Source: Dudresnaya verticillata
Taxonomy: Eukaryota
DNA: 64,000 nucleotides
Direction of reading: 5' to 3'
NCBI GenBank assembly: GCA_977862235.1
Contig: OZ374557.1
Location: 2,790,001-2,854,000 of the forward strand
The notes beneath the pieces are model-generated. The model saw only the letters and a list, made by a program, of their open reading frames with translations, had not been told where the DNA came from and made no database searches. Shown here piece by piece: positions 4,544 to 32,799 of the stretch (its first letter is position 1; the number at the start of each line of letters is the position of its first letter). Position numbers and translations under genes: made by a program.

Positions 4544-4548
4544 AAAGA

Positions 4549-5128
4549 TGTGGTGTAGTGAAAACCCATGAACTCCGAGACGGACAGCTGGCCTGACTTT
4601 CCTTAACGGACGAGAGCAACACTACCTCCACGGGGTGGTAGAGCAAGTCGCACCGAGACGGGAGAACAGCGAGCGGCTAACCGAGACGGATATTGGGAAG
4701 CAACAGACAAGGGGGTGGTACAAGTGCCGGGACGGACTCCGTAACGGTGGTGGTGGTAGACCGCAACGGGCTCGGCGCGGGGAAAACCGTAAAGGATTGG
4801 GCTAAGGTTGCTTACCCGTTTACCTTAGGAGCCGCTGCGGTGCCGTACTGATATACAAGTCAGGGTGGCACCGAGCGGTCCGGTCCGTGGGGGCCAGACC
4901 CTAGTGGTCTGGTCCTATGGTGGAATCGGCCCTGCTGGTCCCAATCTCCGACACGGACATGCGCAGCATTCTCATTGGCTGGCGCACTACTCTACACACT
5001 GTACACAGACTCACTAAAAATAAAGAATAAATACTACAAATACTCCGCTTCGGTTGGTGCGCTCCACTGCTGCACAGCAATGTACGCCAGCCCACAACAA
5101 TGCACCCAAAACCGACACGGGTACACGT
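4549..5128 (-). repeat. 5' LTR of family A, outer ~90 bp missing
   Basis: Reverse-complement match to solo LTR 62453-63051; homology stops near 5128. Confidence 0.85.
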
Positions 5129-5196
5129 GCACACATCCCACAACGGTTCAGGCCACGCTATATGCATTTCCATCGTTTCGGATGCCGAATCTCAGT

Positions 5197-6515: not shown

Positions 6516-7190
6516 TTAAGCATGGCGCGCCGCACCGTTGATTTTGGGCACACCGGACTGTCTTCTGTCTTATACCTTCTGCCTTCTCTCTTCTGCCTTC
6601 TCCTTTGGCGCAGGTCAATACGTACGTCAAGTACACAAAGTGTAACCTTTGTGCACCCAGAACCGTCCTGCGCTCCCCAGGGCAACGTGTGGATACCCTG
6701 ACGTTGGTGGTTCCACCGCAAAATACCCAAGGGCTCCTTGCCTTACTCCGCCTAGGGCCCGGCAGCGGGGGAGAGATATGCTTCTTTAACCGACAACACC
6801 GGAGCGGTGTTGCCCGTACACGTCTGCCCTCCAAAGAGACGCACTTAGACAGGGCTGCCGAAGCACTGTCCAAAGCAAACGGGTCGCCCTTTCGCCTCGC
6901 GGAACCAATAGGCTCAACGCAAAGGGTACTCAGAGTTGCCGAATTGCCGCCCCCCGAGTCACAATCTGTGGGGCTTGCACTAGCAGACGATTGGTCGCGA
7001 TGGTTACCAGGGGTCCGTCACCAAAGCGAAACTGAAATCGCAAAAAATGGTTAGCGCTAGTACGCAAACGACGACGATTTTTCAGAGCCCAATCCAGGAC
7101 GCGGACAGCAATGCGATTTTTTCCTAAGTCTTTTTTGACTTATGATTTATTTTTGCGCGTGCGGGCAGAGTCTAACTAGGCAACTATCGA

Positions 7191-7280
7191 TTTTGTTTTT
7201 CTTTTTTGTTTTTGTTTTTGTTTTTGTTTTTGTTTTTGTTTTTGTTTTTCTTTTTCTTTTTCTTTTTCTTTTTTCTTTTC
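7191..7280. repeat. (TTTTTG)n/(TTTTTC)n microsatellite
   Basis: Directly visible. Confidence 0.95.
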
Positions 7281-7736
7281 CTACCGTAAATGCCCTATGC
7301 ACTAAATTAAAAACAGTTTGTCGCGAGTCGCTGGATCTGGATTCGGGTCGCTGGATCTCGATTCGGGTCGCTGCGTCGCCGGTTTGTCTATTCGCGCTCG
7401 CACCGCTCTGAACTGCGCCCACCACGGATAACCGGTTGAACCCTCCCGCCCCCCCAGGGCGCGCCGCTACCACTCGGGGTAGCGACGACGGGAATCAAGC
7501 AGGATCTGTACCCGTTGCGAACGGGTCTGCTCTCGCCACAACTCAGCTTACCTGCCCCGGGCTTCCACCCGTGCTTGCGCGCTCCCGTAGAGGGAGGGGG
7601 GGAGGAGTCGTGCGGGAGCGTTCCGCGCCACCGCTCATATGGCCCTGTAGTTTGCGATTTACACGGCCTCAGCGAGATCACGGCGAGCTCACTTCGTACC
7701 AATTTAATTATGTAAAGTAGCTTTCTAGGCCCCTAG

Positions 7737-7939
7737 GACAGGTGCGGTTTAATCACATAAATTAAGAATGGAGGCGCACGGCGGGACTGTAAGATCGTAT
7801 CGCTGTAGCGCGGCGGCGCGTCTGTCAATTTACTGTCAGAAAATCGGAGCGCACCAATGCGCGCGCGTTGTTTGGTACCGCGGCAAAATGCAGCCAATCG
7901 GGTGGCGCGGCTTGGCGGTCAGCCAATGGGGTTGCAGCT

Positions 7940-7975
<36 letters not shown>

Positions 7976-8198
7976 ATGCTACTGATGCTGCTGATGCTGC
8001 TGCTGCTGCTGCTGCTGCTACTGAATTTTTCTATTGGGCGTAAAAGGGAGAACTAGAAATATTTTTAGGCGTGCGTAGAAATAGGTTTGGCGACGAGGGA
8101 TGGTAATGGCGGGCGGATGTTAATTTCCACAAATGTTTTACTTGTACGAAGCCCTCGAGGGGCCTCGTACACTCACAAATCATTACTATGGGGAGAAT
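7737..8198 (+). repeat. ~460-bp repeat with internal (GCT)n tract; inverted partner at 60777-61240
   Basis: GACAGGTGCGGTTTAATCACATAAATTAAGAATGG...GGGGAGAAT matches the reverse complement of 60777-61240. Confidence 0.9.
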
Positions 8199-8643
8199 CC
8201 CGCTCGTGCCTCGAATGTACTCTAGCTTCGGCACATTCATCGATTCCTTGTACCATTTGTAATACGTGCGTTTCTATTTTTTATCCACCTGTATTCTAGC
8301 CTTCGGACAATCGGGCTACTGAAATGCGCTGCCGGGTTGACGTTGACTGTTGACCTTGCCCCGCTGCCGGTGAGCGCGCTGGGGATAAGCGCGGTGTGGG
8401 CGAGGCTTCCCGGCATGGCTAGCTCCCATCCAGCGCGGAAGGGCAGATCGCGGAGGCGACAGCAGTCGATCTCACGCCACCCTGCGCTGCGTGCTGTGCA
8501 CAGCTGCGTGCTGTAACAACTTGTGGGTTCGAGAGTGGAGAAGTACGCAGCCAGACGCCGGGATTGATTAAAGTATCAGAGGGTAAAAGGGCGTACGCCT
8601 AGTTGTGTGTGAAAGGGGAGGCAAGGACACGAGTGTTGGCGAT

Positions 8644-8923
8644 GACGTTCAACCTCTTCACCTCATCGATGGAGGCTTCTTTGGAACGCTGCCTTCTATG
8701 TGTTCAGTAGATCAGTCCCCTACTCGGTTGTGGCGACGAGCAAGGCCTTGCTGGTGGTCAAGTCCTTTTCGCAGACGCGCCCGGACGTTCAACCTCTTCA
8801 CCTCATCGATGGAGGCTTCTTTGGAACGCTGCCTTCTATGTGTTCAGTAGATCAGTCCCCTACTCGGTTGTGGCGACGAGCAAGGCCTTGCTGGTGGTCA
8901 AGTCCTTTTCGCAGACGCGCCCG
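8644..8923. repeat. exact 140-bp tandem duplication
   Basis: 8644-8783 is repeated at 8784-8923. Confidence 0.92.
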
Positions 8924-9476
8924 GGAGTAGCCTTCTGAGCCAGTTGCCCAACTCGAGGGTGAAATATCTGACATCTGACACGGATTTTGGATAACTGATA
9001 TCCTTGTCTATCATTTTAACCATGTCCGAATGAAGCCGTTCAGGACCTCCATGCCCGATGCTACGAGTCATGGAGTGCTGTGGACCCCAGGTGTATGCCA
9101 AGCGCGAAAGCCAGAAGGCGCTAGATTCTACAGTGCATCGCAGCGCAACGGCGAGAGGAGGGGAATCAGCGCCGCTTTACACACGACGGGCTACCCTTTC
9201 GGCTGACGCAGTGCCCGCGGGTTGAGACATTCTTCTTTCACTCTCAGCGTCTGCGTGGTGCAAACGTCCTAGACGGAACACCGCCGAGCAGTTCGGGGCT
9301 CGGTGGGTAGCGACGCCCGTGGCGGTGAGAAGCCTCGCCTTGGGCGGCTTGTGGTAGAGCCGTTGACACGCCTTGGGCGGACTGTAAAAGCTCGAGGCGG
9401 AAAGGAAAAACAAAAAAAGAACAAAAAGGAAACACGTCAAGGACGGTGATGAACGTGGAAGCACGGGAGGTAGACG

Positions 9477-9691
9477 TGTGGTGAAGCGGCCGTTGTGGAA
9501 TGCCGACGACGGTTGAGCCGACTCGCGACCGGCCCACCGGTGAGGTGGCACCAAACACCGAACGGGATTGCAGCGACACAGTAGCACTGTACGCCTTGCT
9601 GGAGTCTGCGTGAACCACCAATAGGAGCCAAGTAGTTGATCTATTTGTAATTAGGTAATTGTAATGATTCTGTACAGTACATAGTGTCAGC
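9477..9691 (+). repeat. left part of the 5' LTR of family B (continues at 43523)
   Basis: Starts TGTGGTGAAG; matches the reverse complement of 43310-43522; ends in TCAGC, which is duplicated at 43523-43527. Confidence 0.9.
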
Positions 9692-9820
9692 TGTGGTGAA
9701 GTGAAAGGCACACCTGTAAGGAGAGCTGATCAGGCAATCCGAATAAGGAGTGATCTCACACGGCACCGGGGTGGTAGATGTCACAGTAGAGCTTAGTTCG
9801 TAGACCGAGGGAGTACCTCG
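9692..9820 (-). repeat. part of a reverse-oriented solo LTR-B (rest at 42961-43522)
   Basis: Reverse complement of ~43868-43986; ends in CCTCG, which is duplicated at 42961-42965. Confidence 0.9.
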
Positions 9821-10338
9821 TATAAGGAATACCTTTTAGGTCTCTTGTGAACTCAAAGAGTGCACTCAATGAGAAACCCACAGAGCGGGTACTTGGTAGC
9901 GGTAGTAGAGCGGGAGGAACCCAGAGGGTAGACGAGGGCACGTAACCTGATTGGAAGCACGATACTGAAGGTAGTTCACTGGGCGGGCGGTTAACCGGGC
10001 ACGGGTGACACGTGTGCTGCGGTGCCGATAGCTTGGAGACGTAGTTAGGGCCGGAAGGTGCTTGTCGTTACTGTTCAATGACCGCTACGGGAGATACCCT
10101 TATATGGTACTCCGACTGTCAGGCAGCACCCCTCATACTGGGCTATATACACGCTCCCTATCCTAAGCTATAATTTATAAACTAAATAGACAGATACTAA
10201 GCTACTGACCTGCAGGGTGACACTTGGACCAATCATAGGCTACCCATCTTGTCCCTGCTAGCGCCCTATAGGTAACGCTATTTCCGCGCATACACGCGGG
10301 CAGAGAGCCCACTTCTACAAGCCCGTCACTGTATTACA
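9821..10338 (-). repeat. 3' LTR of family C
   Basis: TATAAGGAA...GTATTACA (TG mutated to TA); purine-rich CGGGGGAG adjacent on the minus strand (putative PPT). Confidence 0.93.
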
Positions 10339-10414
10339 GAGCTCCCCCGAGATTGCAGCCCGTCCTCGGGACGCCAGGGCAGCCTGCACGTGTTTCGCGC
10401 GAAATCATAACCGT

Positions 10415-12308
10415 TTGGTATCCAGACGGCTCAACGCCCATGACCGTCGTCGGCCGGCAATCGATCCCGCGCGCAGCAGTACTTCTCTTCCGCAGCAGCA
10501 TCACCTCAAAGGTTTTTCCAACATGGTCCCACGTCAATCGCAACCAACACCACGCCGCTCGCCACCCCGTCGCCGTCGTCTCTCCAACCCTGACGTTGTC
10601 TTTCCAGTCACGACTTGCGTAGGCTGCGGAGGTTACTACGCGGCCACGGCCCAGTCTTCCCCCATGGGTGGACACAGAGGGTTGTCGGCGTTTTCCAATC
10701 AGGAGGTGCTGGAGCAGTTTCCGCTTCAAGGTTACCTTGTGGACACCCATCCGGACACCTACCGCTTCCGGGCGATCCCCGAGGGTAAGCGCGAGAACCA
10801 GTGGGTTGCGCGTTTGCGTCACTGTCCGCCGAGCGTCGTTATTCCGAATCACTACGGTAGTGACCTCAAGTGGCTGTGTGTCGGGTTTGAAGAAGACTAC
10901 GTCCCCTTGCTCTACCGCTTCCTTGAGGGTAACCAGTGGGTGACCGAAATCAAGTTACTTCCCGAGTCACTCCTGGAGTCTAAGCCTTTTCCCGACCTGT
11001 GGTGGCTTACCGAGCGGTGGGCGGTGGATATTTGGACGGAGACTCGCATTCGCAACCGTACCGATGGTCTCCTAGCGCGGTTTCACAACGTCGAAATGTG
11101 GAATATCCCCACGGGTCGGCGTCGCGATTACTATGTGAAGAAACCCAGCTGGTGGCACGCCATCGAAGGTCCGCGTTCCTTGCCGTCGTTAACTCCGGGA
11201 GTGTTGGCGTACTTCGGCGCCCATACGCGTGATTCCGCGGCGAAGTGGTATTACCCAGTGTGGTCAATCGCCAAAACCGAGCAGGTACTCCACGTAGCGC
11301 TGGCCTTTCTTCAGGCAGCCTACTTTGGCATATGGAACTCTTTGCCCTATACCGAAGCCGGTTACCATGCCCAAGATTGTCTACTGGATGGTCGTCTCTT
11401 CCGCTTGTCTAAGACACTCATCGAGTCAATCCGCACCCTTGGGGTTGACCTCATTTGTGGGGGTAGTACCTTTGTGGGTGACGACTTGGCGGGAATACTA
11501 ACCGCATCGGAGACCTTCAAGTGGGCCGCCGGCGAGGTTTGGGTTGCGTATGACCCAGAGGTTTCCGAAGCGGTGGACGGATTTGGTAGGCGACACAACG
11601 TTGATAACCGTCCTGGTCCGCCGCTCTACTCCTTTGGGGAGGTAGAGGGCATGGGTCGTGGCTTGGGTCACATGGGGCCGAACTCGGAGAGAAACCAAGT
11701 GGTCGAAGACGAGGAGACGCCAACCTACAGTGGTTACCCCGACAGGACGCGTACAGCGTCAGGGCATGTGACTCCAACGAGGACCTCGCGCCTGGGTCTG
11801 GGGGCGCGTCCAGGGACTCCAAAGCCACAAGCGGCACCGGGGACAGTAACGCACATGCGCGAGGCGCGTCCAGCGACACCCGCGCGGGCACCCTCCACTG
11901 GCATACCCCCGATGGTCACTCCTGAGGCAGCGACTCGACAAGTTAACCCGTTGGCTTCACCGAGTGGTCCCTCTGGTACAGCGACGGCCCCAACTGGAAC
12001 GACCCTATCTGCCTCGGGTCACCTTAAATTTGGGGGACTTCAAGAGGCGTGTCGCGCTGCGAAAATCCCGGTACCGGCAACCTCAGAGGATGCTCTGGAT
12101 GCCGCTCGGGAGTGGGTGTCGAAGGAGGCACTCCTCACGTGGTTATGGGGGGGGCCGCCTAAGGAGACTCCAGCTGGCTCCTCTACCTATCAGGTGACGC
12201 AGCCTCTTCCTGCCGGGGTCACTACCAGTGTGGCTACTCCCGTGGAGGCAGGGAGTCGAGCGGCGCTGCACGAAGCGACTTCTAGAGTTACCACGCGAGC
12301 GGAGACTC
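10415..12308 (+). CDS. antisense accessory ORF of gypsy family C, unknown function; interrupted at 12308, with its true C-terminus at 35906-36001
   Basis: Long open frame opposite to gag-pol; a second copy at ~57230-60086 (-); removing the insertion restores ...AET-RRASPFQ...HYQ* in frame. Confidence 0.8.
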
Positions 12309-12855
12309 AACACGCATTTGAGCGATTTCAGAATACGACGTTCGAAACAGACTGGAGTCGAATGCCTATTTTCTGGTATCATTGGAAAGGGGAGCGTCCC
12401 CTGAGTACGGTGGTCAAATCTGATTTGCTAACGGACCATTCCTTCGAAAGTTATGGCGGTTTGCGTGAATTTACCCAAAATATTTTCAGGTATTCTGAAT
12501 TTCAATTTCTTTGCGTCGATTTGGCCCGGGCGGCCCACTCCGCGGTCCGCACTGGGCCAAATTGGAAATTGCTGGCCCGCAGCATGCCCCTCGCCGCGCG
12601 CGCTGCATGCGCGCCACATCGCCCATCTGGCCCGCCCCGAGCGTGCTCGGCGCCGCCTGCAGACTACCCCGTCACCAGTTTTCGGCTTTCTGGTGCAACT
12701 GGTGCACTGTGCTGTGCGCGTCTGTGCACAAATCCGCACGCGACCGCATACAGACTGCCTCGTCACCCGCCCCCCCGCCCCGCCCCGCGACGCACAACTC
12801 CTTGGGCAAAATCTACTGTCGCGGTTGCCCACCCTCGTGCACACCGTGGATCCCG
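12309..12855 (+). repeat. left terminal inverted repeat (~547 bp)
   Basis: Matches the reverse complement of 35356-35905 with about 23 substitutions by eye. Confidence 0.95.
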
Positions 12856-15800
12856 CTGCAGTCACCTCGTCAGCGCGCCCTGCCCGTCGCTCCCCGACCG
12901 CGCTGCACGACCCGCCCGCCCGTATTTCTCTACGATGGGACGCCACATGCCGATTTCATGACAACTCGCAGACACAAGTATGGCCATTCCATGACACGCA
13001 CCCAAAACTACGTAGTTCGTTAGGTAATGATAATAAAATGTATAAGCCTGCAGCTGTTTCCCGGTTAACCACGCGCGCGAACGATTGCGTTTTCGACACT
13101 CCAAAGGTTCCCCGTTCCAACCATGTCCGTAGGCTCATACATTGAGGCAACTTTGCAAGCTCCGTTGGGGGAAAGTAAATGCGGCATTTGGTAAGCTCAT
13201 TCAACCTTGAGGGGGATCGCTTCCAGTCCACCACCATTGCGGTTGATAATAGCGTCCAAACTCCCACGACCCTGCTCCCCAGACGCGTCAGGGTTAATAA
13301 CATTCAGTGTACTCAATAACTGAAGCACTGACAATCTGCGGTGTTAAATGGGCAGGACGTGCTCATGAAAGGGACATGTTTCCGCTGTTGGCGACATTTG
13401 TTGACCCACTTCACATTGACTCGTCAGCTGCCATTGCGGGTTCCTGGTCCAGGTATGGTTCTGCCTGCAAGGCGTATATAGCCTCTTCATGAAAAGGATA
13501 TAGTACATGCGGCAATTGCCAATGCACCTCGGTTGCTTACTGCCTGTGCCATGCATCTCAGTGGGTCTTAATGCATAATTGTGCCCAGCTCGTTCCGTAA
13601 TGCCTGAACGGGTCTGAGTACAGTTGGGAGGGATACCATCAGCCGAGGTTGCTGAAATGAAGACGAGAACCCAGATAGGTCGTTCTGATACCACTATTGA
13701 TAACTCTATTTTGCCGGCGCATACTCCTCTTCCACAATACAGGGCTCGTGCTCGCACATGTATTGAAACAAGCGTCGATATCAACATGTGCAGCATTAAC
13801 TGCCCCGAATACGTGGCGAAGAAGGAATCAATTTGCTGGTCCCGGTTTCGAGAGGATAGTGGGTTAAACTTCGCGTGTCTGAACATTCGACGTGGCAGAC
13901 ATGATGAATCCAATCGTGTTTTTAGGTACAAAAAGTACACGGTATATATCCCAGCGGAACAATAGCGATCCAAGGTCCTGATGCATAAATCCCCCGCTGA
14001 TGTACTACCCCCTGTGCGAGTCCAAACGCAGATCCTCGTACGTAAGGGGAAGATGTCTGACTTCGTACCTAGGGAGCCTGCACGAGAAGTCAGTGATGAA
14101 CTGCTTGGGAAGAGCCAGGATCTGTCGTGTCTGGATTTCAATGCCCTGCGCAGACCAGAGAAAACTGACAAAGATATGGTCCGCCGCATTGGTGAGTCCA
14201 ACTTACTCGCATTAATTGACAACTGCATCTCCGAAGTCAAGCGGTTCACCGGCCTTGAGGCATTGGGAATCAGACTATTCGACCGGTCTGTTTTCCTACA
14301 TTTATGGAACGCGTTCATGGACAGGCAAATGCAAAGAACTACGGACAAACGGAACGAGTTGGAGGTTTGAAGGCCTTCCTAGTTGATATTCAGCAGAGAG
14401 AGGAAAATAATCTGATGTCAAATCCCGACACAGCTATTGTGCTGGAAGTACTCTCGCGGGGACATGGCAAATTCAAAAGCCGCCAGGAGCGTAATTCGTA
14501 TTACGTCGCTCGTCAATAATACAACCGTCGACGTCTTTTCGTTTCTAACATTACCGACGACGAAAGGTACGGCCATAAGCACACGTAGTCAAGACCGACG
14601 CGCGTCTCCAAGTACTACTCTTGCTACGCAATCAGATTGATTGGTCGACTTCATCCTTGGTCGATATTAAAAAGACTTGCACGACGAAGCTTTCTTATAC
14701 ATGACGCGCACGTCATGCTACGCACGGGCCACCCTTGCCTCCTTTACCTCCACAGTCCTTTCTGCGTTAGTTTTGGCAAAATGCCAAGTCAGGAGAGGGC
14801 GGCACATTCGCTCCATCTCCCGTACTGGCTCGCTTGCCAGGCGAATCGCCTCGACCAAGACGGCATCGATTTCATGAGCTTCGGATCGGGAGAAAGCATC
14901 CCCCGATACGTAATCAAGCTTCTTCGTACCCCCACGGTATACCACTGTGAGCATGTTCTGGTCATGATCGTATTGACCCATAACGACCTCAAACTCCCGA
15001 GCACGGTTCTGTTCCATGACTCTTTCTTCATCCTTCACCTCCAAGGATCGCATTATGCGTTCCGAAAATTGCAAAGAGTCACCATTAAGGCGGCGCTGCT
15101 GCTCTGCCAGTCGACGCCTCAATTCACAGCGCATGAGGTCATGAAATGCGCAGAAACCTGACTGTATGTCGTCCGGCAACACCGGGAGGTCAATGAGCAT
15201 GTCGATAGTAATAGGAATGACTACACTCCGGCAAGAAATCCTCTTCCCTGTGTGTACAGCCGTATTTCTGTTCCTCAGTACCGTAGAGGAGGTCTGTGAA
15301 ATGCAACGATTGCGCGCTTTTAAACGGAAAGTAACACTTGCAGCTAATGGTTTTTGCTGTGTACGAGGCTTAGGCATTCTATGTATACAAATAGGGATAT
15401 ATCTTCGATTGGACACGTTCACATTCCGGCAATCAGAATGACCGTACTGTACCGAAGCACTTATACCGGCAGCAGTATGAGGACCCTGCAAAAATGCAGC
15501 CACAACTTGCTGGATAGTTCACATACACCGCCCAGATATTAGGTGGATCCGCAGATCAGACTGTCTGAACCTCCGCAGAATAGGGCTTTTCTGTATTGCT
15601 AGAACGAGGACATGTTGACCTGTGCACAATTCTGGAACGTACTTACAGGGATCACTTGGACACACTGGTACATGCTGTATTATGGTCTCACGTATGGTAT
15701 TAATCATTTCCCTGACCTTGATATTACTTGTATCATTGGGTCACACGCATACTTACGTTTTTCGTGGCATCCGATGGCAGATTGTGATCATCAGTTTGTT

Positions 15801-16625
15801 TCGGTGCTGCAGTGGTCTTATGATGACCATATCTGCAGGGTGGAGGCGCAGGTTTCAGGAAATGCCAATGTTGAACGACTCTGTGAGGGCGGACAGTAAC
15901 CTCTTGCCAATTCGAAAACCCGAGGTTATTCCTATCGTTTCTGAGGAACACGTTCATGTTGGTACAATCTGAATGACTTTACGTTTACGAATCGTTCACA
16001 TCACCCCCAGTCCAAGGGAGTGTGCCTACGCAGGCACACGTACTTCCAATTTCCCCTCCACGTTGTGGAACTATTTCGTATGCCCATTTCTTACCCGCCT
16101 TGAGCATCGTTTAGATACCCTAGTAGGGGAGCTGTGAATCGGAATCACTGTACGGTTGGACGGTTAGAACTGACTTCCAAATATTTTCTGAGAAAGTACG
16201 AACTTAGGGTGAACACCGCTACCGCACAATACGTCGATATATTTACCGACGACCAATAGAACCCTGCAGTGATTTGTAGCTTCATGAAATCTCGCGGAAT
16301 GTATCAGGGCACCACCAATCGTACAGGGCTCTAACTATCTTTCCGGCAAAGTTAAAACCGTACGTGAGGCTTTTAGTCATGCGGACAAACTTCGTTTCCA
16401 GGTTAAAGCTGGAAACCTGCATGATATATCCTGTCTTTCAATGCCGTGACCACTGACCTGACTACGGACATATTGTTGTAAACCCGAAGTGCTCTTCGTG
16501 GAAACCGCAACGCTTATCCCGTGCTCATCAGCTTAACGCAACCAGTTGGAAACACCTACGGCAACCAGTTGGAAAGACGTACGGCGACCGTTTGTTCAAA
16601 AGTGCTGAATTACACTTTTGGCTGG

Positions 16626-19531
16626 ATGGGCAAGAAACGTTCAGGAAAGGGTGCTGTTACACAATCTGAAGCGGACCCAAATTGCTCTTCTGCAAGTATG
16701 GGGAGGGCATTGTTTTCTGACGTGATGGAGGGTTCCGTGAATATGAGAATTGACCCCAGGGCGTGCTTCCCGCTAACGGCAATAAGACCCGTGGTGCGCT
16801 CCGGAGTGGAACGCCTCAAAGCTCGCATTCATCTACACTCATCAGAGAAGAAAGGCGATGAAGGGACTATTGGGTACGTTGCCGGGTCTGACTCTCCAAT
16901 TGTCATCGAAATGACAGGGTCTCTGCGGGGTCACGTCGTTGCGTATTTCAAGAATATGAAAGGGGAAGGGAAGGAGTACACGGAGGAGGAGGCTTTGGAG
17001 AAGGCAAACGATCGCTCCAAATGGTACGGCATTGTTGACGGCTTGCATAGACCTTGCGTTATTTTGGAGTTAATGGAGGAGTTCCCAACAGTCTGGCAGC
17101 CTTTCGCATGGCCTGTAACGATTTTGAAGGGTGGGCACAACGTCCATGAGCTCCGGCAGCTGGAAAGACATCAGAATGAGAGACACGACCAGGGATACTT
17201 TATCGAGACTACATCTTTTGACCTGGTCCGCGGTCTGCGGGAGGAGGCGGAGAGGTTGCAGACCAAGACTGGGAAACAACCAAATGCCCGAAACATTGCG
17301 GAGGCGTATGACGGTTCGAAGTTATATCGTAACAACACCATTAAACAGACTGCTCAGACAGTTATGCGGTTGGATACGAGAGTAATTCACGCATTGGACA
17401 AATTGCAAATGAGGAGAGACCGGATCTAGCTGCAAAGATGACAGGAGACAAGGAAGGGACAACACTCGACAAGGACGGAGCAACGAGGACGGTTGACTGC
17501 CGAGTCTACAGAAAGTTCATCCACATTTCATCACGGAAGTCTGCAATCGCCTTCATGAATGGGAACAAACTTGATGATGGCGTAGAAATACAGATTTAAA
17601 CTTTGTACCGACTACGCGAAGTACATCGACTTCAGAGGTTCCGGTCAGTCACCAGCTTTCAGACTCTGGAACAATTTGGAAGGGCGAAGGCAGCAATAAG
17701 GGAATCACGGAAATTCTAACACCTTATCGAGAGCCAGAGTTGGCCTGAAGGTATGAACGTCATTCGCCATAATCTCCTTCGTTCCACGAAGCCGGACCAC
17801 GAGGTGCGTGCAAACTTCGGAAATGACCACGATGTGCTCAAGCCCTTGATAGCCGCTTATCGAAGGGAATGCCCGCAACAGGCTCCAGTTAAGGAAAAGA
17901 AGTTCAAGCACCAGTTCCAAGCAGAAACTGATTCTGGGAAGGATGCATCTCTAGACATAGGAGAAAGTGACAGGCCAATAGTTTCAGCTTCCGAGATTGA
18001 TAAGACGAGTTCTGAAGTTGATGGAAAAACTCAAGGGGGGAAAGAAAAAGACTCGAAGGGGGCCCTTGGTGGCCAAAAGCAGTCGGAAGCCGTTAAGGAG
18101 ACTGTAACTGACACGCAGAGGCAGATTACGCAATCGGTCCTGGATCCTACAGACGACAACGACACAGGCGCATTAGCTGGTAACAATGACATCCTGAACG
18201 AGTGTATTGGACCGGGTAGTCGTTCTGTTTCTTCAACACGCAAGTCGGAGAGACTGGATACCGGTTCTGATGTGGAGGAGAAGGACCCGCTTTCCAAATG
18301 CAGGATACGAACATATCAGATGAAGTGGGAGGAATATGACCAATCAATCAGGAATGAATTCAGTCCTCTATTTGACCTCGTGCTTGCTGACCCTCCGTAT
18401 GGTACCCCGAAGGGAATGTCAAATGCTGGAACTGCATACGCAAACCATTTCAGTGAAGAAGACATCAAGCGCCTTTGCGAGTTTTGTGGACGTGTTGTGA
18501 AGGAGGCTGGTTGGGTGTTTCTATTCTGCAGCTTCTTGAAATTCCCGTTGTTTCAAAAGGAACTTACCGGCAACAATTTCGATAGTCCGCAGTACCCTTT
18601 CTTACTCTGCAAAGACACAACTACTGTCCAGATAAGTCGCAAGAAGGGACTGCAGAATGGGGCTGAGGCAGCAGCCTTCGGAAGGCGCAAGGGTACATCC
18701 AAGAACTCTTTCTCTCCAGACCTCTCCAGCCCGTACCACTTCATCTCGTGTAAGGAGCGACGAAAGTTTGCTGTGATGACCTCTGTTCCCGTACCCAGAG
18801 ATAAGTTCATGAAGCCAGGGACTAGCAGGGCACCAGTTCTGATGGAGGAGAAAAATCCTGATGCACTTACTGAGATCATCACAACCTTCTGCCCTGAAGG
18901 CGGCTCGGTCCTAGACTCTCATGCGGGGACAATGACTACAGGAATTGCCTGCGTTCGGACAGACAGAGAGTGTTACCTCGTCGAAAGAAACCCGGAAACA
19001 TACAGACTGGCTCGTGCACGCCTGCACCGCATGGCAGAGGAGAAGCAGAACGGGTCGTCTCAAGATGCAGGGGTCCAAGCACAGAAGTGTTCGGCAAAAC
19101 AGATAGACAAACAGCCGGACACGAAGAGGGTACGCACTGATCAGTCTGAAAGGGAATCACAGGCTCTAATGATGTCCCCAGGTAAGCAACAGTCTGGGAA
19201 ACGTACAGGAAAACCTAGGGAGAAACCGCTGTCATGCGATCGACCGCAACGCAAAGGTGGTGACGCAGTTTGGCTGCTGTGTGGTCCAGATAAGGTTGGG
19301 AAGGCAGTACTGAAACCGGGTAACGAGGCCCACGGACTGAAGACAGAAGTACACCAGCACGGGTTGCGGGAGCTCGGCAAGAAGGGAGAGCATCTCGTGG
19401 CTGTATTTTCCTTCAAAGTTCGCGATGAGTTCGCGGAGAGGCCGTATAAGTACACTTTTAAGGGTCCAGAGGAACCGCCAGCACTGCTGCGAGACTTAAC
19501 GCATTCTTCGCATGGGATCTTCACATGATGG
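16626..19531 (+). pseudogene. ParB/Srx-like domain fused to a beta-class N6-adenine/N4-cytosine DNA methyltransferase
   Basis: WYGIVDGLHR (ParB-type DGxHR); FDLVLADPPYG at ~18370-18403; later EKNPDAL...PEGGSVLDSHAGTMTTG (SAM-binding motif I). One frameshift at ~17399 and TAA stops at 17597 and 17717 separate the two ORFs. Confidence 0.85.
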
Positions 19532-19650: not shown

Positions 19651-19974
19651 ATGGCATCCATGCACGCTCGTCGCGACCAAGGCAGCGGAAGTTCGGATGT
19701 CGACCCTGCTCGCCTACTGTCCGAATTGCGTACTCTTCGAGGCGAGGTGGAAGGATTAAGGACGGCAGTGGAAAGGCCTCGACAACGAATGAGGGCGGTG
19801 GTTGCCGCTGTTATGGACCGATTGTCCAGAGTAGTGATAAATGCCGTTCATATTGCCCGAAGTGCTAGAAGAAGGCTGCGGTCAATCGAAAGGGTATTGG
19901 GGATAAAACGCAACGAAGAAGATGAGCCCGACCTGGACTTCGACATTGAGAATCAGTTTCAAGCTTCCATGTGA
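19651..19974 (+). CDS. small predicted coiled-coil protein
   Basis: Heptad pattern LLSELRTLRGEVEGLRTAV; similar to the neighbouring ORF. Confidence 0.45.
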   Translation: MASMHARRDQGSGSSDVDPARLLSELRTLRGEVEGLRTAVERPRQRMRAVVAAVMDRLSRVVINAVHIARSARRRLRSIERVLGIKRNEEDEPDLDFDIENQFQASM

Positions 19975-19999
19975 CTTTTTCAGACTTCGTACAAAAACA

Positions 20000-20278
20000 A
20001 TGCCGCTACCTGTCAATCCAACAATGGCCGAAGTGCAGCGAGAGTTGGCACTTCTACGTGCTGAAATCTACCATATTCGCAACACTGTGCGGGAGCTAGA
20101 AACCGAAGTGCAAAGGGCATTTGAATTCGTAAGACGCCTTGTGCATGACTTCGGGAGAAGGACGTTGAGAACACTTCGCAACGTCAGGATCCGGATTCAA
20201 GACCTGCATAGTTCCGTTCGTGTCGTCAGAGGACGTCAAGATCGCAATGTAGAAGACCCTTCTTCCGATTCCGTCTAG
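20000..20278 (+). CDS. small predicted coiled-coil protein
   Basis: VQRELALLRAEIYHIRNTV; tandem with the previous ORF. Confidence 0.45.
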   Translation: MPLPVNPTMAEVQRELALLRAEIYHIRNTVRELETEVQRAFEFVRRLVHDFGRRTLRTLRNVRIRIQDLHSSVRVVRGRQDRNVEDPSSDSV

Positions 20279-21173: not shown

Positions 21174-21833
21174 CTATGAAGCTACCTTCTGCAAGTCTCT
21201 CACCTCATCAACAACACGTAAAACATCGTCTGCAACCAGTCGCAGTAGCAACTCTTGCTTTCCTCTACTTTCAGCATCATGCCCATTGGTCGCCTTCTCA
21301 AAGTTTTCGATGCCAGTTGTTTTCTTCAGCAAGCGCATGCTTTCCATCACAGCAGCAACGCTTGTCTCTCCCTTCGCGGCACGCGCAAAGAACTCATGCT
21401 TGACAAAGACATTATCACCAGCTTCGTCAGAGGCTGCAAACAACGCTGCCTCATCTCCGAGGTAGTCCACATGCGCGCGATAGAACACAGGAACGATAGC
21501 TGGCACGCGGGCGAGAACTTTCGCAGCATGCGCGCAGCGTTTCTGAAAGCACATATCTGATATCAGCTCGCACATCGTCCAACGCTTGGCGGGAAACTCG
21601 GGTGATACAATGAAGACACCGACTCGAGCTTTCTCCATTGCCGTATCCATCGAGCCGTGTGCGTCATTGCCAACTGCGAGACTTTCCCTGTCTACGAATG
21701 CTGATACGCCCCGGTCGCGGAGCATCCTCCACAAAGGCATAGCCATCGTCTCCTTGTCCATCCCACTGTGGGACACGAACACGTCATACCCCGACGCATT
21801 GAGATAGACCTGCTTTTCCAGGTCCATCCGCAT
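21174..21833 (-). CDS. Toll/interleukin-1-receptor domain protein (possibly a fragment)
   Basis: YDVFVSHSG.DK...AFVD...L..G...A....RVGVFIVSPEF....W...EL pattern; start uncertain. Confidence 0.85.
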   Translation of the reverse strand: MRMDLEKQVYLNASGYDVFVSHSGMDKETMAMPLWRMLRDRGVSAFVDRESLAVGNDAHGSMDTAMEKARVGVFIVSPEFPAKRWTMCELISDMCFQKRCAHAAKVLARVPAIVPVFYRAHVDYLGDEAALFAASDEAGDNVFVKHEFFARAAKGETSVAAVMESMRLLKKTTGIENFEKATNGHDAESRGKQELLLRLVADDVLRVVDEVRDLQKVAS

Positions 21834-23149
21834 CTCGTGCTTCAGTGATGGGAAGCCTTTTCCGAGTATAATCGCGCTCTTGTGCAACGATCCCAACTCC
21901 AATCTTAGTGGGACTGTAGGTTGGGCGTCATCACGCTGCGACAGAGAGTTCCACTTCTGAGACTGCGGAGTAGCTTCGCGCAAAGTCCAACTTTCGTCCG
22001 GTACCCGCCGTCCCTTATGAATCTCAGTCCGACGCCGCCGCTCCCGCCCCCGGACCACAACACACTTCTCCTCTTGCTGCTGGTCTTCCTGGCTGCGCCG
22101 CTTCAGGTTTGCGCCGTCGAGCTTCCACGGTCACTGCTTGCTGCGCGCAACTATGCAGACTGCCCCGTCTTCCTGCCAGACGTCGCCCCCCGGGCGCCGG
22201 CCAGACCCGCATCGTCGGTGGCCAGCCCGCCATGGACTTTATGCGCTCCCATCTCGTTTCGTTCCATGCGGAGGGCTGCGGGGCCTCCCCCATATCCAGG
22301 CGTTGGGCTATCACAGCTCGTAGTGTATGCAGCTGACAAACGTCCTATGCAGATTGCCATCGTCTCTTTCGGCTATGGCTGCGCACGGCCGCGCACGGCC
22401 GAAAATCCCTGGCGGCTACACACGAAAAACATCACAAGCACCGACGCCGACGGACCCTCCAAGCGGAACAACGTCGCCGCCCACGCAGCCATCATCTGCA
22501 GCGAGCGCTAAACCGAGCACGACGCCGGATGCGAAGGGAGGAAGCAGTGGGGACGGGGCGGGGGCGAGGGCTCGACCTACGCTGTGAAAAGGGTTCCAGT
22601 CGTGTGCTGCCCTTGTCAAGGGCGCTGGTGTTGTGTGGTGTGCGTTTTCTTGAGTGGCATTCCAGTGCGTTTTCAGATGATGTCTGGCTCGGAGCGGTGC
22701 GGCTGGGCGTCTCGGGAAAAGTAGCAAACGCAGGAGGACCAAAGTGAAAAGCTATAAACGAATATGAATATCAGCCAATAGCTAATGGCGCCGGAGAAAT
22801 GTAATATCTTAGCTTTTTGATTTCCTCCTCCGCGGGAGCTACATAGCTCCCGTGTTTCCCGAAATCAAAATACCTAAGAAAATAGATATTTACACTCGCG
22901 GCATTCCGTTAGCTACATAGCTCCCATAGTCGCCGAGATGGGAAACCTAAGAAAATAGCTTTTCGAATCTGTCGGCGACAGGGAGCTATAAAAAATATCC
23001 ATATGCGCCGATAGCTCCGGCGGAAGTCTCACTGAATTAGCTATCCAGCTGCTGGTCACCCGCCTGCTGCGGAGCATGTCTCCACGCACCGCAACCTCAC
23101 CGCATGCACCGTCCTCGTGGTCACCACCGTCTCCTACCATCACCACCTC

Positions 23150-25004
23150 CTCTCTTTTCATGGTCGAGACGACACAGACGATGCCGATAATCCCGGGCGA
23201 TTCTTCCGCGGTATGCCGCGCGCGGTTGCGGAGGTAACCGCATTATCACGCCAATCCCTGCCAGCATGGATAGTTGACGAGACCATTCTTCGAGCTCCGA
23301 ACGTGATGCGTTACCTCGCTCCTCGCTATCCTTATCTCCTACGTCATCTACGAGGCCGTTCTGCTCCCCACGGCTCAGCTCCATTCTCGTCGCATTCCGC
23401 GAGTCATACTCGCTCTGCTCGTGGTCGGTTTCTTTGTCGTCGCAATGCACGCCGACCAACCCCTATCCGGTTTGCGCCATACATTCGTGCAACTCTGCCC
23501 TTGTTTCACTGGGGTTCCCTTTGTGAGTGTACGATGGGAATCCTTTCCGTTGTAAGCCCTTTCATCGATGTCGTGAGAGTCATCGCTCTATTTGCGTTCT
23601 TCTTCAGTTGGCTCGTGACCGTGCTGTTCCATGATGTTCCAGAGGTCGATTGCTACTTCGGCGACCTCACCTCTGGGCTCTACTAGTAGACAGTGGAGCT
23701 CCGCTTTCGCTTCGTTAACAACTGCGGATTGGCCGATGCAGATCATGGCTGTTTTGGATTTCTCGAGGGCAAGTGCGTTGATGTTCTTGGGGTTCATCAT
23801 CATTGGAGACTTTCTGTTTTTCAATGTCTTGCTCGCTGTTGTATACAACGCGTACACAGGCCATATCGAGGAATTTGTCATCGATAAGCTACAAGCGCGT
23901 AGGAATGGTATTACAACCATGGATTAGCGTACGACATCTTGGGTGGGGACGATGGAAATTGCATGGTCCCAGATATCAAACTCCTGTTTGACCAACTTTG
24001 GAAGAACAACAAGCACAGCCACATGGATGATGAGCGAGTGGATCTGGTCTTTACGGCCCTGGGCGGAAATCAGGACAACAGCCTTAGTCGTAAGGCGTTT
24101 TCGGACGTAGTCGACGTGCTTCAACTCAAGCTCATCATTGCGCTCGAGAGAATCTATCCGATGGCAATGTTTGCCCGGAACTATATGACGCATCGTGGTG
24201 GCAGTCTATTGCTTCTTATGCGCGTCATAATGCCCATACATATCAGATGTGCGTTGTCATGGCCGTCAATCTCATTGTCGTCGTGATTGAGACGACAATG
24301 GATCTGCGGAACAAGGACTCTCAAGGAATCCAGTTGGTTTTGTTGTTTTCGACTGTGGGTTCTCCGCTCTCTATATGCTGGAAATGGTTATGAGCGCTGC
24401 CAGTCTAGGTTTGATGTACGTCTTCGCGGCCACTGGAGTTGAGCTACTTGGTGGTCTGATCTATGCGTCGAAGCCGGCACTGAGTCCTAAAACCAATCAA
24501 ATCTTGGACGGGTATGTTGGCAACGACTACTGGCCACTCATCTTAACTTAACTAAACATACTGTTGATTTACACAGTATGGGATCAGGATGGTACACATT
24601 ATTTTCTTCCGTCATCGTTGCATCTCTTACAGAAATTGCAGAAGCGCAGAAGCGATTGCATCAGCGTCGAGTTATGGGAACTGGACCAAGTGGTTCGTCT
24701 TGCTTACCTTTATCGTGCATTCACGTGTTGCTGTTAACGGCAAGATTGTATATACAATTGGATATCCAACTACGTGGTAACGTTCGTTATGGACATCTTC
24801 GTGATGGAAGACGAGCAGGAATATGACGACGTTCAACTGTTACAAAATCGCTACGGTTCTGAGCGAGTCAATGTCTTGCAAGCTAAGACAACGGTTGACC
24901 AAGTTTACGTCGCTACATTCCGGGAAAGAGGCCAAGAAATTTTCGATTCGGACTCTCCAGACGTAGACCCATGGATGCTGCCCCATATGCCTTCCTACGC
25001 CTAG
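23150..25004 (+). pseudogene. TPC1: two-pore (TPC1-like) cation channel, multiply frameshifted
   Basis: RFAPYIRA (S4-like), pore FASLTTADWP, S6 FLFFNVLLAVVYNAY, EF-hand-like linker, and second-repeat fragments. Confidence 0.78.
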
Positions 25005-25949: not shown

Positions 25950-28900
25950 CCAGAATATTGACACCCCTTTGACGCTTGTTTCGGCTTCACCTCCGTCTCA
26001 CTCGGGGCTAGTTGCTTTCCATGTCATTTGCTCCTGGTCCCCCGCCTCTACAGAAGTACTAATTTCCGGATCGTCTCCTCTCTTTCGCATCTCTAGGGCT
26101 TCCCTGATCTTTCGCTGCACCGTGACGGGTATTCCAGAGTTGGTTAAACGCGCGAACTCCACTAAAACCGAATTCCCCGGGACCGTATCGCTCCACGGTT
26201 TGACATGTCCATTTGCATCGGTTATTCTCGCCTTCCGATAACGCCCGGTGAAAGTATTCCCTCGAGTACTCCTTCTCTCGTACCACTCTACTTACAAATT
26301 GATAACCTTGCCCCCCGTCCGTCTCCCAATTCATCACCTGCCCAAGCCAGAACGGGGATCCTTCGGTACAGTCGTCGCCTAGTACGGCTACAAAGCCGTT
26401 CTTTGTGTAAGTGAGGTCCTGCTCCACTACATTCTCAGGGTCTGACCCGATTCCGTGGGTACGCTAGGGCCGCTCCCATCCGGTTTGTAAGCCCCTTCCA
26501 ACTCAAACACATCCGCCAATGCCCAGTGGAATGGGTCTTCACCGTCCTCGTAAACTCTATCACGAAGTGCCAACAGCTTCTGTAGCTTAAGGTGATTGTT
26601 GATTCTGGTCTCGGCGGATCGTAGACGCTTGGTTACTTCGTGTTCATCTGGCGGTGCTCGACAGGGAGTCGGTGGAGTCCGGTGCAGGTTGGGGGAAATA
26701 ACAAAAACCCCCCTGGCCATCTCGCGTATGTAACGGTTTCCAAGAGTCTTTGCAGCCCCTCTTCACTTCGCAGAGAGTCTTGAACGTACCGGCGTCTGTG
26801 TCCTTAGCTTCTTCGGCACTGAGCCTAAAGTACCGATATTCTGAAATGGGATCGGTACGCCCGAGGTATCTGGTCTCTTTGCACAACCCGGAGAAATTAA
26901 TAATGTGCAACATCTCCGTGACACGCGGTTGAGGAGTGTATGATTGCCGTAGTTCGTGCATGAGGTCATCCATGATAATGGCGTCTCGAACGCGTAATCT
27001 CTTCGAAGTGCAGCTGAAAACTTGATCGATATCGGCATGCGTGTGACCGATGGGGAGAAACGACGCATGCACTTCCGGAAATACACCCATAGCAACGAGA
27101 TACGCCAAGTAGCCGAACATAAACCTGTTCTTATTCTCCCTAGTACAGTTGTTGACCTGGAGGAACAACGTACCCTTCAGTGGCATCCTGTTTCTGCGTG
27201 CCATCAATACGCGATGCAAAGCTTCGATGACATAGTTTGCGCCTGTTCCGAACTCGACAGTCATCGTGAAAAGGTTTAGATGTGGGACTTGGCCATGCTC
27301 TAAAACGCCGATTACTTTGGCCATCATTCCGTGTCCGCGTGTTTCCTTCACCTTGATGTGGAAGTGTGGCAGTCCAAATGCGGACTGGTCAGCACCGTCG
27401 ATGATGAGTGAGCAATAGTTGTTCGGATACATCGAAGCCGTCTCACACTTCCTCCGATATTCTGTTCGCTCCTGCATGACCATTCTCACGTGCCTTGCCC
27501 GCTGCTCGCGAAGCGCTTCGGTTCCCGCTAGATCCGTTGCCGCTTTTGCGAGAAGATCTTTGATCTCCTCACACTCGGAGCATTTTGCAAACCGGTGAGT
27601 TCGCCTGACCTTAATTTGCGGACAGCTGCGGAGCCAGATACTATAAAAGTAGCTCTGTGATGGTGTTGCTCTGTTAGGGTACAGAGTGCGGTGCTCAGTC
27701 ACAAACGTGTTATAGACTGCGAGCTTCTCATAGAAGGGGAGGTGGATTTCAGCCTTGTCTGGTTGCGAATCACCATACACTTCTGCGAGGCGCTCCAAGA
27801 ACGACGTTATCACCTCCATCTGTTCCGTAGAAGTACCACCAACTATCAGCCCCCTCCCTTTCCTTTCGCGGCTCTTGTTTGTTCCTTTCACTGCCGACTG
27901 CAGGTCTCTAGAGAAACCGAAAGCCTTGTCCAGAAATGAGTAACAAACCGGCCGTCCGCTGAAGAAGTACATGTTGGAGTTGGGTTCCAGTAGTCCCGTG
28001 AGGTATCGCTTCCTTTCCGCGCGGTTCTTGTCCATCATTTTGCGTGACTCAACCCTGATGTAGACTGACTCGATGGTTCCGAAGCATTGTTTCGTTTGGC
28101 AGCAGAAAATGTTGAGATATCCTGCATCTCCATCACCTCCACTACCTTTCTCCTCTTCGCAGCCATCAAATGCCCCGATGGGGTTCCTTTCGGACGAGCA
28201 TCATGTCTATAATTCCTCTTCCGGCTCGTCCTAGCACTAGCCTGGCCGTCTCCACGCCCTTCTTTGCCATCTCCTCCCCCTCGGAGGGGTGCCATTCCGG
28301 CGTGTCGGAATCAGAATCCTCCCCATCGTCTGCAGTCCCGACGTCAGGATGCTCTTCTTCAGAAGCGTGATCACGACCTCCCGCACATTCTTCTGCTGTA
28401 TTTTCGACGGGAGTATTGTCTTCTTGTACGCCGTTCCCGGAATCTCCCTTCTCCCGTTCAGCTTCGGCTGGTTTTGGAGCCGCGTCATTTCTTCCCAGTT
28501 TTGATAACCCAGCTTCCGTGTTTTCTTTGCCCTCTAATTGGTACGACCGCGGGCACATACAGGCGGGACGCTCCGGGGTATAAACCAACGCGGTCTGAGC
28601 AACTGCAGCAGCAGGGGGTGTAGAAGGCTCACCTACTATAGCAGCCGGGGGTGTAGACGGAACACGTGGTGTTGCTGACGGTGTAGTAGTGCGGTCATGA
28701 CCTTCTTGATGTGGCTGAGCGCTGGGATCAGACTGACCGGTACGGGTGATTTTTTTCGTCACTGTCCGCTTATGAGCAAGTCCCTGACCCCCCTACGGCC
28801 TGACCGCCTAGTTGACGTCCTGGCACGAACAGTGTGCCTCCCACTCGGTTGCTCCATTTCTATCCGAGGGCAAGCTTCCCCGGTCGCCACGCCGGCTTCT

Positions 28901-29439
28901 CCAGCACCGCTTGTAGGTTGCGGCTTCACAGTGCGGACTTGCTCCCTGTCCCATACATGAATACCCACATTTAGACCAGTTAGAGTGGTGGGGGGAGACT
29001 CTATACTGGGATACTTATACATGTACCTCTTGTCCCCATGTCCATTCCGAATACGGACATTATAGATGACTGTCCATGTCTCCTTCCTCCGCTGCACCTC
29101 TCTTAACCACGTTCCATGCATCTTAACTTTGAATGAACCTGTACTGTCTGCCTCTTCCGGAGACGCCGGAGTCATTGGATCAGCCGTACCCACCTCCTCT
29201 CCGTTCAGCAGCAGCACTACTTTCTTCGACGCTGACATGATTTGCGTGCCAGGGCTGGTTACTGCGGGCGCGCTTCCGCCCCCCTGTTTGCGAATTGGTT
29301 CTTCCGCGGCCGTCTCCGCCGTCGTCTTACCGATAGTCTTGGCCGAGGAATTGTTCCCTCCCATCACGGAGACGGCATGTCTGTCGGCAGTGACCGGCCT
29401 TTGACGCAAAGCAGTGCGACGTTCTCTTGTGCGAGGCAT
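25950..29439 (-). pseudogene. Sola1-like DDD transposase, frameshifted; core at 26644-28038
   Basis: CC..KQC, VCYSFLDKAFGFS, FAKCSEC, IIDGADQ, LQV(N)NCTRENKN and FLPIGHTHADIDQVFS; consecutive overlapping ORFs 28759-29517, 28166-28762, 28035-28295, 26644-28038, 26427-26720 and 26059-26427. Confidence 0.82.
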
Positions 29440-32562: not shown

Positions 32563-32799
32563 ACTGTACGCATAGACAAACTTGCCCGGGGGGAACGGTG
32601 GTCGTTCCGGAACTCCTTCACCGCCACCACCTTCACCAATGATTGTCTAACGCAGAATTTTGAATCCGCCGTGGCAAACAGCGACTCCCCAGGTGAAACC
32701 AAGGCCCTTGGAGACGCGTTCATCGTCGCAACGGGTCTGCCGGTTGATGCCGACGGCCTAGGGTCGCTTCAAGGCTGTATGTAGGAGCTTTTGCTCTGG

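What the first reader, a model, noticed from the sequence alone, without database searches (positions are those of the whole stretch)
16626..19531. Eukaryotic transposon encodes a prokaryote/phage-style ParB + amino-DNA-methyltransferase fusion
Seen: a DGxHR ParB/Srx motif, then DPPY preceding the SAM-binding motif (beta order). One frameshift and two stops can be repaired to give a ~970-aa protein. Knowledge: ParB + N6/N4-methyltransferase fusions are typical of phages and prophages, and some eukaryotic transposons are reported to carry amino-methyltransferases. Inference: the element may write its own 6mA or 4mC mark, on its ends or on chromatin, to regulate transposition or evade silencing.
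Basis: partly seen in the sequence, partly recalled or inferred. Interest (0 to 1): 0.87.

Follow-up and report, generated by a model that had tools for sequence, protein, structure and literature searches.

The report
Dead transposon ParB-methylase cargo gene
This is a broken copy of a gene that joins a bacterial-style ParB-fold domain to a DNA-methylase domain and whose intact relatives sit beside a jumping-gene transposase, where they likely bind and would chemically mark or shield the element's own DNA, a design already proposed for algal transposons but not found tested.

Summary
16626-19528(+) reads through (one frameshift, two TAA stops) to 967 aa: ParB/Srx fold with DGLHR, helix-turn-helix-like and helical parts, linker, beta-order N6/N4 methyltransferase (DPPY before the SAM motif), and a ~90-aa tail domain. 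Intact 750-1190-aa relatives confirm the fusion. The copy is dead; a further stop hits the tail's conserved W and the SAM motif is decayed. The family travels with DUF7869 (Sola1-like) transposases: 4 of 29 fetched transposase loci carry it head-to-head, and the two genes co-diverge (Mantel rho 0.88). A broken transposase of the matching lineage lies 6.5 kb downstream here, tail-to-tail; no element ends were found. The design and the self-methylation idea are already in print (Ectocarpus Sola1-1_Ec32, PMC12477816; red-algal Plavaka accessory genes). Additions here: the tail domain is also the N-terminus of 7 of 42 related transposases and of the neighbouring one, and 31 of 50 full-length relatives have lost the catalytic motif (at least 4 changes on the tree), so binding may matter as much as marking. 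This copy belongs to a DPPY-keeping clade, favouring 6mA. New member of a known, untested kind.

The parts
16626..19528 (+). Pseudogene of the ParB-fold/HTH + beta-class amino-methyltransferase + tail-domain fusion (967 aa read through)
16728..17201 (+). ParB/Sulfiredoxin-fold domain (residues about 35-192); near-invariant R54 (16785) and DGLHR (17037-17051, a GxxR P-motif)
   Evidence: model pLDDT 88.5; VIA Z 9.3, rmsd 2.3, 97 aligned to PadC; conservation
17202..17375 (+). Helix-turn-helix-like part after the ParB fold (residues about 193-250), predicted DNA-binding
   Evidence: KorB aligned over 38-245 (Z 7.2, rmsd 5.1, 129 aligned) and many HTH proteins at Z about 4; weak on its own
17393..17900 (+). 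Conserved helical middle domain, carrying the frameshift (about 17393-17400) and both TAA stops (17597, 17717)
18290..19042 (+). Beta-class N6A/N4C methyltransferase domain: DPPY 18389-18400, SAM motif 18914-18940 (H where all 19 motif-IV-intact relatives have Y/F)
   Evidence: PF01555; CcrM Z 23.9, rmsd 3.0, 225 aligned for the model of relative P0003
19247..19530 (+). About 90-aa tail domain of no Pfam family, shared with the N-terminus of related transposases
16394..16620 (.). Upstream cluster: five TGGAAA[CG] words, including an 8-bp inverted pair (16394-16416), a 23-bp tandem pair (16538-16583) and another 8-bp inverted pair (16597-16620); candidate binding sites, weak
26088..29439 (-). 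Broken DUF7869 (Sola1-like) transposase, tail-to-tail with the gene; frameshifted, second catalytic D read as N; likely the same element lineage
   Evidence: PF25273 E 4e-44
28930..29238 (-). Second copy of the tail domain, at the N-terminus of the neighbouring transposase
   Evidence: 25% identity over 88 aa, E 4e-8; E 1.5e-21

Best explanation
This is a decayed copy of the accessory gene of a Sola1-like cut-and-paste DNA transposon, whose intact product likely loads on the element's own DNA through its ParB-fold and helix-turn-helix part and would methylate nearby adenines (6mA more likely than 4mC) to keep the element transcribed or protected from host silencing. Shown: the fusion, the folds, the lesions, and physical linkage and co-divergence of relatives with DUF7869 transposases. 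Inferred: DNA binding at element-specific repeats (the upstream TGGAAA cluster is a candidate), nucleotide gating by the ParB fold, methylation by the DPPY-keeping clade to which this copy belongs, and the benefit to the element. In the many relatives without the catalytic motif the protein would act by binding alone. The neighbouring transposase is probably, not certainly, the partner gene of the same element.
For: 564 relatives at E<=0.001; 50 near-full-length ones examined. ParB fold: all 8 chains at Z>=5 among 48,161 are ParB/Srx-type. Methylase fold: top matches are beta-class DNA N6-adenine enzymes. The copy sits in a supported 6-row clade in which all rows keep DGxHR and DPPY; all 19 motif-IV-intact relatives begin the motif with D, none with S. 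Linkage: 4 of 29 transposase loci carry the gene head-to-head, 4 of the 5 with at least 2.5 kb upstream; 5 of 25 methylase contigs of 5.6 kb or more match a transposase contig in source and exact length, null mean 0.03 (inferred pairing, 4 independent pairs). Co-divergence over 9 pairs rho 0.88, p 4e-4; 0.87, p about 0.002 without the window. Shared tail domain in 18 of 50 methylases and 7 of 42 transposases. Same design in Ectocarpus Sola1-1_Ec32.
Against: No activity, expression or methylome data. 31 of 50 full-length relatives lack a [DNS].P[YFW] motif, including the intact element L008, so marking is dispensable in several lineages. No TIR or TSD above shuffled background encloses the gene (best score 14, null 11-13). 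The window's two genes are tail-to-tail and 6.5 kb apart with unrelated fragments between, whereas all 4 directly seen loci are head-to-head. In the 4 length-paired elements only one of the two genes bears the tail domain, here both do, which fits two different elements. The upstream word cluster is modest: 33 of 1275 windows reach five copies of some 6-mer. DPPY does not exclude 4mC (established knowledge).
Confidence: 0.6

Rival explanations
1. The protein is mainly a DNA-binding transposition cofactor or shield (ParB-like loading on element repeats, bridging ends or blocking host silencing); the methylase fold is a scaffold or reader and methyl transfer is secondary even where DPPY survives.
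For: Catalytic motif lost in 31 of 50 relatives with at least 4 changes forced on the tree while the SAM-motif D and G stay in 25 of those 31 and the ORFs stay whole; L008 has a 994-aa open frame without the motif beside an intact transposase; tail domain shared with transposases.
Against: The clade of this copy keeps DPPY, DGxHR and the SAM motif across members only about 50-57% identical in the N-terminal part, which indicates selection on catalysis there.
Confidence: 0.25
2. The mark restrains the element or is aimed at the host: methylation of ends limits transposase access (self-limitation, like Dam on bacterial IS ends), or the enzyme marks host chromatin or RNA broadly.
For: Established knowledge of Dam control of IS10/IS50 (recalled); beta-fold relatives include RNA enzymes (METTL3, lower Z 14.8).
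Against: Closest folds are DNA enzymes (Z 20-24); fusion to a ParB/HTH module suggests local action; nothing here tests direction of effect.
Confidence: 0.1
3. The gene here is an orphan fragment or belongs to another element type (Plavaka/Mutator cassette), and the downstream transposase is a separate insertion.
For: Orientation differs from the 4 seen loci; no ends; such accessory genes are reported to move between TE families in red algae; the window is a patchwork of TE and gene fragments.
Against: The window's two genes rank their relatives almost identically (Spearman 0.95 over 8); no other transposase was found near the gene. This rival concerns this copy only, not the family's function.
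Confidence: 0.3

Closest known systems
Accessory gene of Sola1-1_Ec32, Ectocarpus (PMC12477816; passages and supplement table rows read, figures and FASTA supplements not seen)
   Same: ParB-like domain plus N4C/N6A methyltransferase in one protein (1104 aa there), on the opposite strand to a Sola1 transposase; the authors propose binding and epigenetic modification of the element itself.
   Different: That gene is transcribed and in a 21.5-kb element with 282-bp TIRs and 4-bp TSD; this one is a pseudogene without detectable ends. The passages read do not mention a tail domain shared with the transposase or catalytic loss. Sequence homology could not be tested.
Plavaka accessory genes PAG2 and PAG3 of the red alga Bostrychia (bioRxiv 10.1101/2025.02.11.637652; section 8 and passages read, supplements closed)
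   Same: Transposon-borne PF01555 methylase (PAG2) and ParB-like domain (PAG3) with adjacent inverted-repeat arrays; same self-modification idea.
   Different: There the methylase is described with a SET domain and ParB with a 2OG oxygenase, on EnSpm/Plavaka elements; here ParB and methylase are one protein, no SET family was hit in 47 relatives, and the partner is DUF7869.
Phage and bacterial ParB-N6/N4-methyltransferase fusions (bioRxiv 10.1101/2025.10.10.680097, passages; PMC4738411, section 8 and passages)
   Same: Same domain order; a 494-aa phage 'ParB/Sulfiredoxin' model aligns over both domains (E 2e-10); GxxR P-motif.
   Different: About 10% structural-alignment identity; tblastn matches in phages cover only the methylase, 24-28.5% in the 20 rows listed of 127; extra helical, linker and tail domains; no close prokaryotic or viral relative found.
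N4CMT of bdelloid rotifers (PMC8885841, search listing and abstract start only; PDB 8S9N)
   Same: Bacterial-type beta-class amino-methyltransferase in a eukaryote; fold Z 20.1, rmsd 3.7, 210 aligned.
   Different: A host enzyme making 4mC (SPPY motif and chromodomain, silencing TEs: recalled), not TE cargo; no ParB.

Membership tests
Beta-class N6A/N4C DNA methyltransferases (PF01555) | Profile score above the curated cut-off | tested here: met
   40.6 bits vs 26.7; 46 of 47 relatives hit at E<=0.05
Beta-class N6A/N4C DNA methyltransferases (PF01555) | Motif IV (D/N/S)PP(Y/F/W) before SAM motif I, permuted Rossmann fold | tested here: met
   DPPY residue 589, motif I residue 764; CcrM Z 23.9 for the relative's model. 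Motif I is decayed in this copy
Beta-class N6A/N4C DNA methyltransferases (PF01555) | Methyl transfer to A-N6 or C-N4 in DNA | not testable with these tools
   needs assay of an intact relative; this copy is interrupted
ParB/Sulfiredoxin (ParB-CTPase) fold | Fold and GxxR P-motif | tested here: met
   Z 9.3, rmsd 2.3, 97 aligned to PadC, all 8 chains at Z>=5 of this fold; GLHR present; GxxR in 22 of 50 relatives
ParB/Sulfiredoxin (ParB-CTPase) fold | Sequence profile match to a ParB-clan model | tested here: inconclusive
   none for this copy; DndB in 1 of 47 and a ParB PHROG in 1 of 47 relatives
ParB/Sulfiredoxin (ParB-CTPase) fold | NTP binding and site-specific DNA loading | not testable with these tools
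   nucleotide preference is not predictable from sequence
Sola1-1_Ec32-type ParB-methylase transposon cargo | [quoted passage not shown] | tested here: met
   met for relatives L006, L008, L013, L014; in the window opposite strand but tail-to-tail, one element not proven
Sola1-1_Ec32-type ParB-methylase transposon cargo | Sequence homology to the Ectocarpus protein | not testable with these tools
   FASTA supplements cannot be read
Sola1 DNA transposons | Sola1-type catalytic core | tested here: inconclusive
   DUF7869 with conserved acidic motifs DGADQ, DNCxRENK, GHTHxDxDQ in 42 relatives; the label 'Sola1-like' is recalled and from analogy; no Repbase comparison, defining paper not held
Sola1 DNA transposons | TIRs and 4-bp TSD | tested here: inconclusive
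   no TIR/TSD above background in the window; ends may be decayed or outside the ranges searched
Plavaka accessory gene PAG2 | PF01555 plus SET domain | tested here: not met
   no SET family among Pfam hits of this copy or 47 relatives; the tail is another domain

The most novel reading that the evidence does not exclude
Sola1-like transposons carry a two-protein self-marking machine: an NTP-gated ParB clamp loads on element-specific inverted repeats and its methylase writes 6mA on the element, while a previously unnamed ~90-aa domain, swapped between the methylase's C-terminus and the transposase's N-terminus, directs both proteins to the same sites or to each other; several lineages have since converted the enzyme into a catalytically dead reader or shield. 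This would be a eukaryotic transposon running a private bacterial-type epigenetic mark coupled to transposition.
Probability: 0.2. Interest if true: 0.8.

Novelty: new member of a known kind. Interest (0 to 1): 0.4.

Why it matters
If intact members do methylate their own element, this is a transposon-encoded DNA mark other than 5mC in eukaryotes and a second anti-silencing strategy beside VANDAL's VANC (cited as the only known case of a transposon modifying itself). The idea is in print but I found no test of it. This window is only a dead copy, but the work names intact, motif-complete relatives (P0157, P0158, P0237, P0250) and natural catalytic-dead counterparts (L008) that make the test straightforward, and it points to a domain shared with the transposase that the passages read do not mention.

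Tried and rejected
No host genome is held, so copy number and element ends could not be mapped. No sequencing run was listed (not evidence). The protein atlas did not answer. Word-based search with the N-terminal piece among longer proteins found nothing, a sensitivity failure given. Pattern scans for the methylase gene found no relative in metagenome, viral or prokaryote-genome contigs, and none for the transposase in viral contigs; the metagenome blank is a false negative for divergent members, since 4 were then found beside transposases. Foldseek gave no ParB match at E<=0.001 (best Noc 1.1e-3). Complex prediction of the two tail-domain copies gave no verdict. Fisher association of ParB-motif and motif-IV retention (p 4e-4) was rejected as evidence of co-evolution: only 4 independent pairs, not significant. 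One contig-length match (4334) cannot hold both genes and was treated as chance. A 2OG-oxygenase (PAG3-like) gene upstream was looked for and not found. A SET-like tail in the L014 protein, seen by eye, got no Pfam or PDB hit. The tail domain recalled the TNP1/En-Spm C-terminal domain (memory) but no Pfam hit at E<=10. The maximum-likelihood tree did not finish; FastTree was used. Iyer 2011 and the Sola defining paper are not held. No phylogeny against prokaryotic enzymes was built.

Full report
Observation. Frame 1 from ATG 16626 gives 267 aa with DGLHR; a second frame from about 17393 runs to TGA 19526 with two TAA stops, DPPY and then the SAM motif DSHAGTMTT. With X at the three breaks the product is 967 aa. 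PF01555 scores above cut-off. A HMMER search of 1.84 billion representatives with the second piece found 564 relatives at E<=0.001; 71 of the 150 listed also match the first piece, which ends where the second begins, so the fusion is real. The final TGA lies where relatives have a conserved W, and the SAM motif has H where all 19 motif-IV-intact relatives have Y or F: the copy is a decayed pseudogene. A profile of the family finds only this copy in the window.

Domains. No sequence profile recognises the N-terminus. Its model (pLDDT 88.5) matches ParB/Srx-fold proteins: PadC Z 9.3, rmsd 2.3, 97 aligned; all 8 chains at Z>=5 of 48,161 are of this fold; residues about 193-250 resemble helix-turn-helix units, weakly. 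Foldseek ranks Noc and ParB first, though none reaches E<=0.001. The model of intact relative P0003 matches beta-class DNA amino-methyltransferases, CcrM Z 23.9, M.BceJIV 22.8, rotifer N4CMT 20.1, PvuII 19.7. A phage ParB-methylase model aligns over both domains at 10% identity; tblastn in phages gives 127 records, none covering 80% of the query, the 20 listed at 24-28.5% over the methylase only. So the order is phage-like but the relationship is remote and origin was not tested.

Family. Among 50 near-full-length relatives (47 picked by length and coverage from the 150 listed, plus 3), 12 keep both DGxHR and strict motif IV, 7 only DGxHR, 4 only motif IV, 27 neither; with a relaxed motif 19 keep and 31 lose it. 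The tree needs 5 changes, at least 4 on supported branches; the window's copy lies in a 6-row clade (support 98) where all keep both motifs (FastTree, midpoint root; motif columns were not removed). Joint loss of the two motifs is not significant on independent pairs.

Link to a transposon. The window has a broken DUF7869 transposase at 26088-29439(-), with N where 41 of 42 relatives have the second catalytic D. A scan of metagenome contigs with its relatives gave 29 loci; 4 carry the ParB-methylase gene head-to-head with the transposase, 4 of the 5 that have at least 2.5 kb upstream. L008 has both frames open, with a methylase lacking motif IV. Over 9 pairs the two genes co-diverge (rho 0.88, p 4e-4; 0.87, p about 0.002 without the window), and the window's two genes rank their relatives alike (0.95). 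Against one element here: tail-to-tail orientation, 6.5 kb of other fragments between (small coiled-coil ORFs, a TIR-domain ORF, an ion-channel fragment), and no TIR/TSD above background.

A shared domain. The last ~90 aa of the protein match the N-terminal part of the neighbouring transposase. A profile built from 24 methylase tails finds it in 18 of 50 full-length methylases (partly by construction) and at the N-terminus of 7 of 42 transposases, including the two best. It has no Pfam family. In the four length-paired elements exactly one of the two genes has it, in L006, L008, L013 and L014 neither, in the window both. It is therefore a movable, dispensable module of these elements; its function is inferred only (DNA binding or docking).

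Candidate sites. Five TGGAAA[CG] words with two 8-bp inverted pairs and a 23-bp tandem lie in the 230 bases before the ATG. An inverted TTTCCA..TGGAAA occurs once in the window (expected 0.06, pattern chosen after the fact) and in 1 of 29 loci, between the two genes of L006. As 33 of 1275 windows reach five copies of some 6-mer, this is a lead only.

Mechanism. Most likely the intact protein loads on element DNA through the ParB/HTH part, possibly NTP-gated (ParB fusions to N6N4 methylases are common in phages and nucleotide choice is unpredictable), and the DPPY clade writes 6mA locally, favouring expression or protecting the element; dead-motif lineages would act by binding alone. All functional steps are inferred. 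The host looks like an intron-poor red alga (my recalled resemblance of the TIR ORF and TE content; not tested, and no relative carried an organism name).

Known work. PMC12477816 (passages, supplement rows; figures and FASTA not seen) reports a 1104-aa ParB-like plus N4C/N6A methyltransferase gene opposite the transposase of Ectocarpus Sola1-1_Ec32 and proposes self-modification. bioRxiv 10.1101/2025.02.11.637652 (section 8, passages; supplements closed) describes PAG2 (methylase + SET) and PAG3 (ParB + 2OG oxygenase) on red-algal transposons. PMC4738411 (section 8, passages) covers phage ParB-terminase methylases and eukaryotic transfers. Searches showed no experimental test and no mention of the shared domain; supplements I could not see may hold it. 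Earlier unchecked notes of this scan report the same design in plants and an invertebrate, which lowers the rarity of this window.

Verdict. Real, correctly read, but a dead copy of a design already described; new member of a known kind, with two useful additions (shared transposase domain, repeated catalytic loss). Interest 0.4.

Noticed in passing
window 22750-23050: AT-rich stretch with repeated AGCTACATAGCT / GGGAGCTA palindromic words and two CCTAAGAAAATAG copies, like subterminal repeats of a transposon end; no partner end found in the window.
   Followed up: partly
window 21174-22130 (-): TIR-domain ORF (Pfam TIR_2 E 1e-11) between the methylase gene and the transposase; possible cargo or host immune-type gene.
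   Followed up: no
window 19660-20278 (+) and 34915-35322 (+): Small coiled-coil ORFs with a similar 'DP..L..E.R.LR.EV' start by eye; no significant Pfam family.
   Followed up: partly
window 13600-15520: Two protein-like broken ORFs upstream of the gene (about 13966-14600 on +, 14721-15386 on -) with no Pfam or NCBIfam family; possible further cargo.
   Followed up: partly
window 23000-24800, 30900-32650, 33294-33779: Broken host-gene fragments: ion channel (Ion_trans), class 3 lipase, eIF3 subunit M, suggesting gene capture or decayed duplicates.
   Followed up: no
window 35906-57323: A 21.4-kb segment bounded by 212-bp inverted repeats interrupts a copy of the repeat also at 9823-12855; it contains a Gypsy element with chromodomain and a UPF1-like (AAA_11/AAA_12) helicase ORF at 51022-53906: a candidate giant DNA transposon with helicase cargo.
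   Followed up: no
window 4548-12855 and 35356-63052: Long collinear inverted homology (88-95%) in several blocks, including an 899-aa ORF of no known family at 10262-12961.
   Followed up: no
window 5803-6390: 21-bp tandem array (26 copies) in a zinc-knuckle-like ORF on the minus strand.
   Followed up: no
L014 1095-5099 (-): 1335-aa intact ParB-methylase (EGMHR, DPPF) in 34% GC DNA, head-to-head with a DUF7869 transposase, with an extra C-terminal part that looks SET-like by eye but got no Pfam or PDB hit.
   Followed up: partly
L008 19-124: Repeated inverted TTGGCCCG.TAAAA words beyond the 3' end of the methylase gene, likely subterminal repeats of an intact element whose methylase lacks motif IV.
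   Followed up: partly
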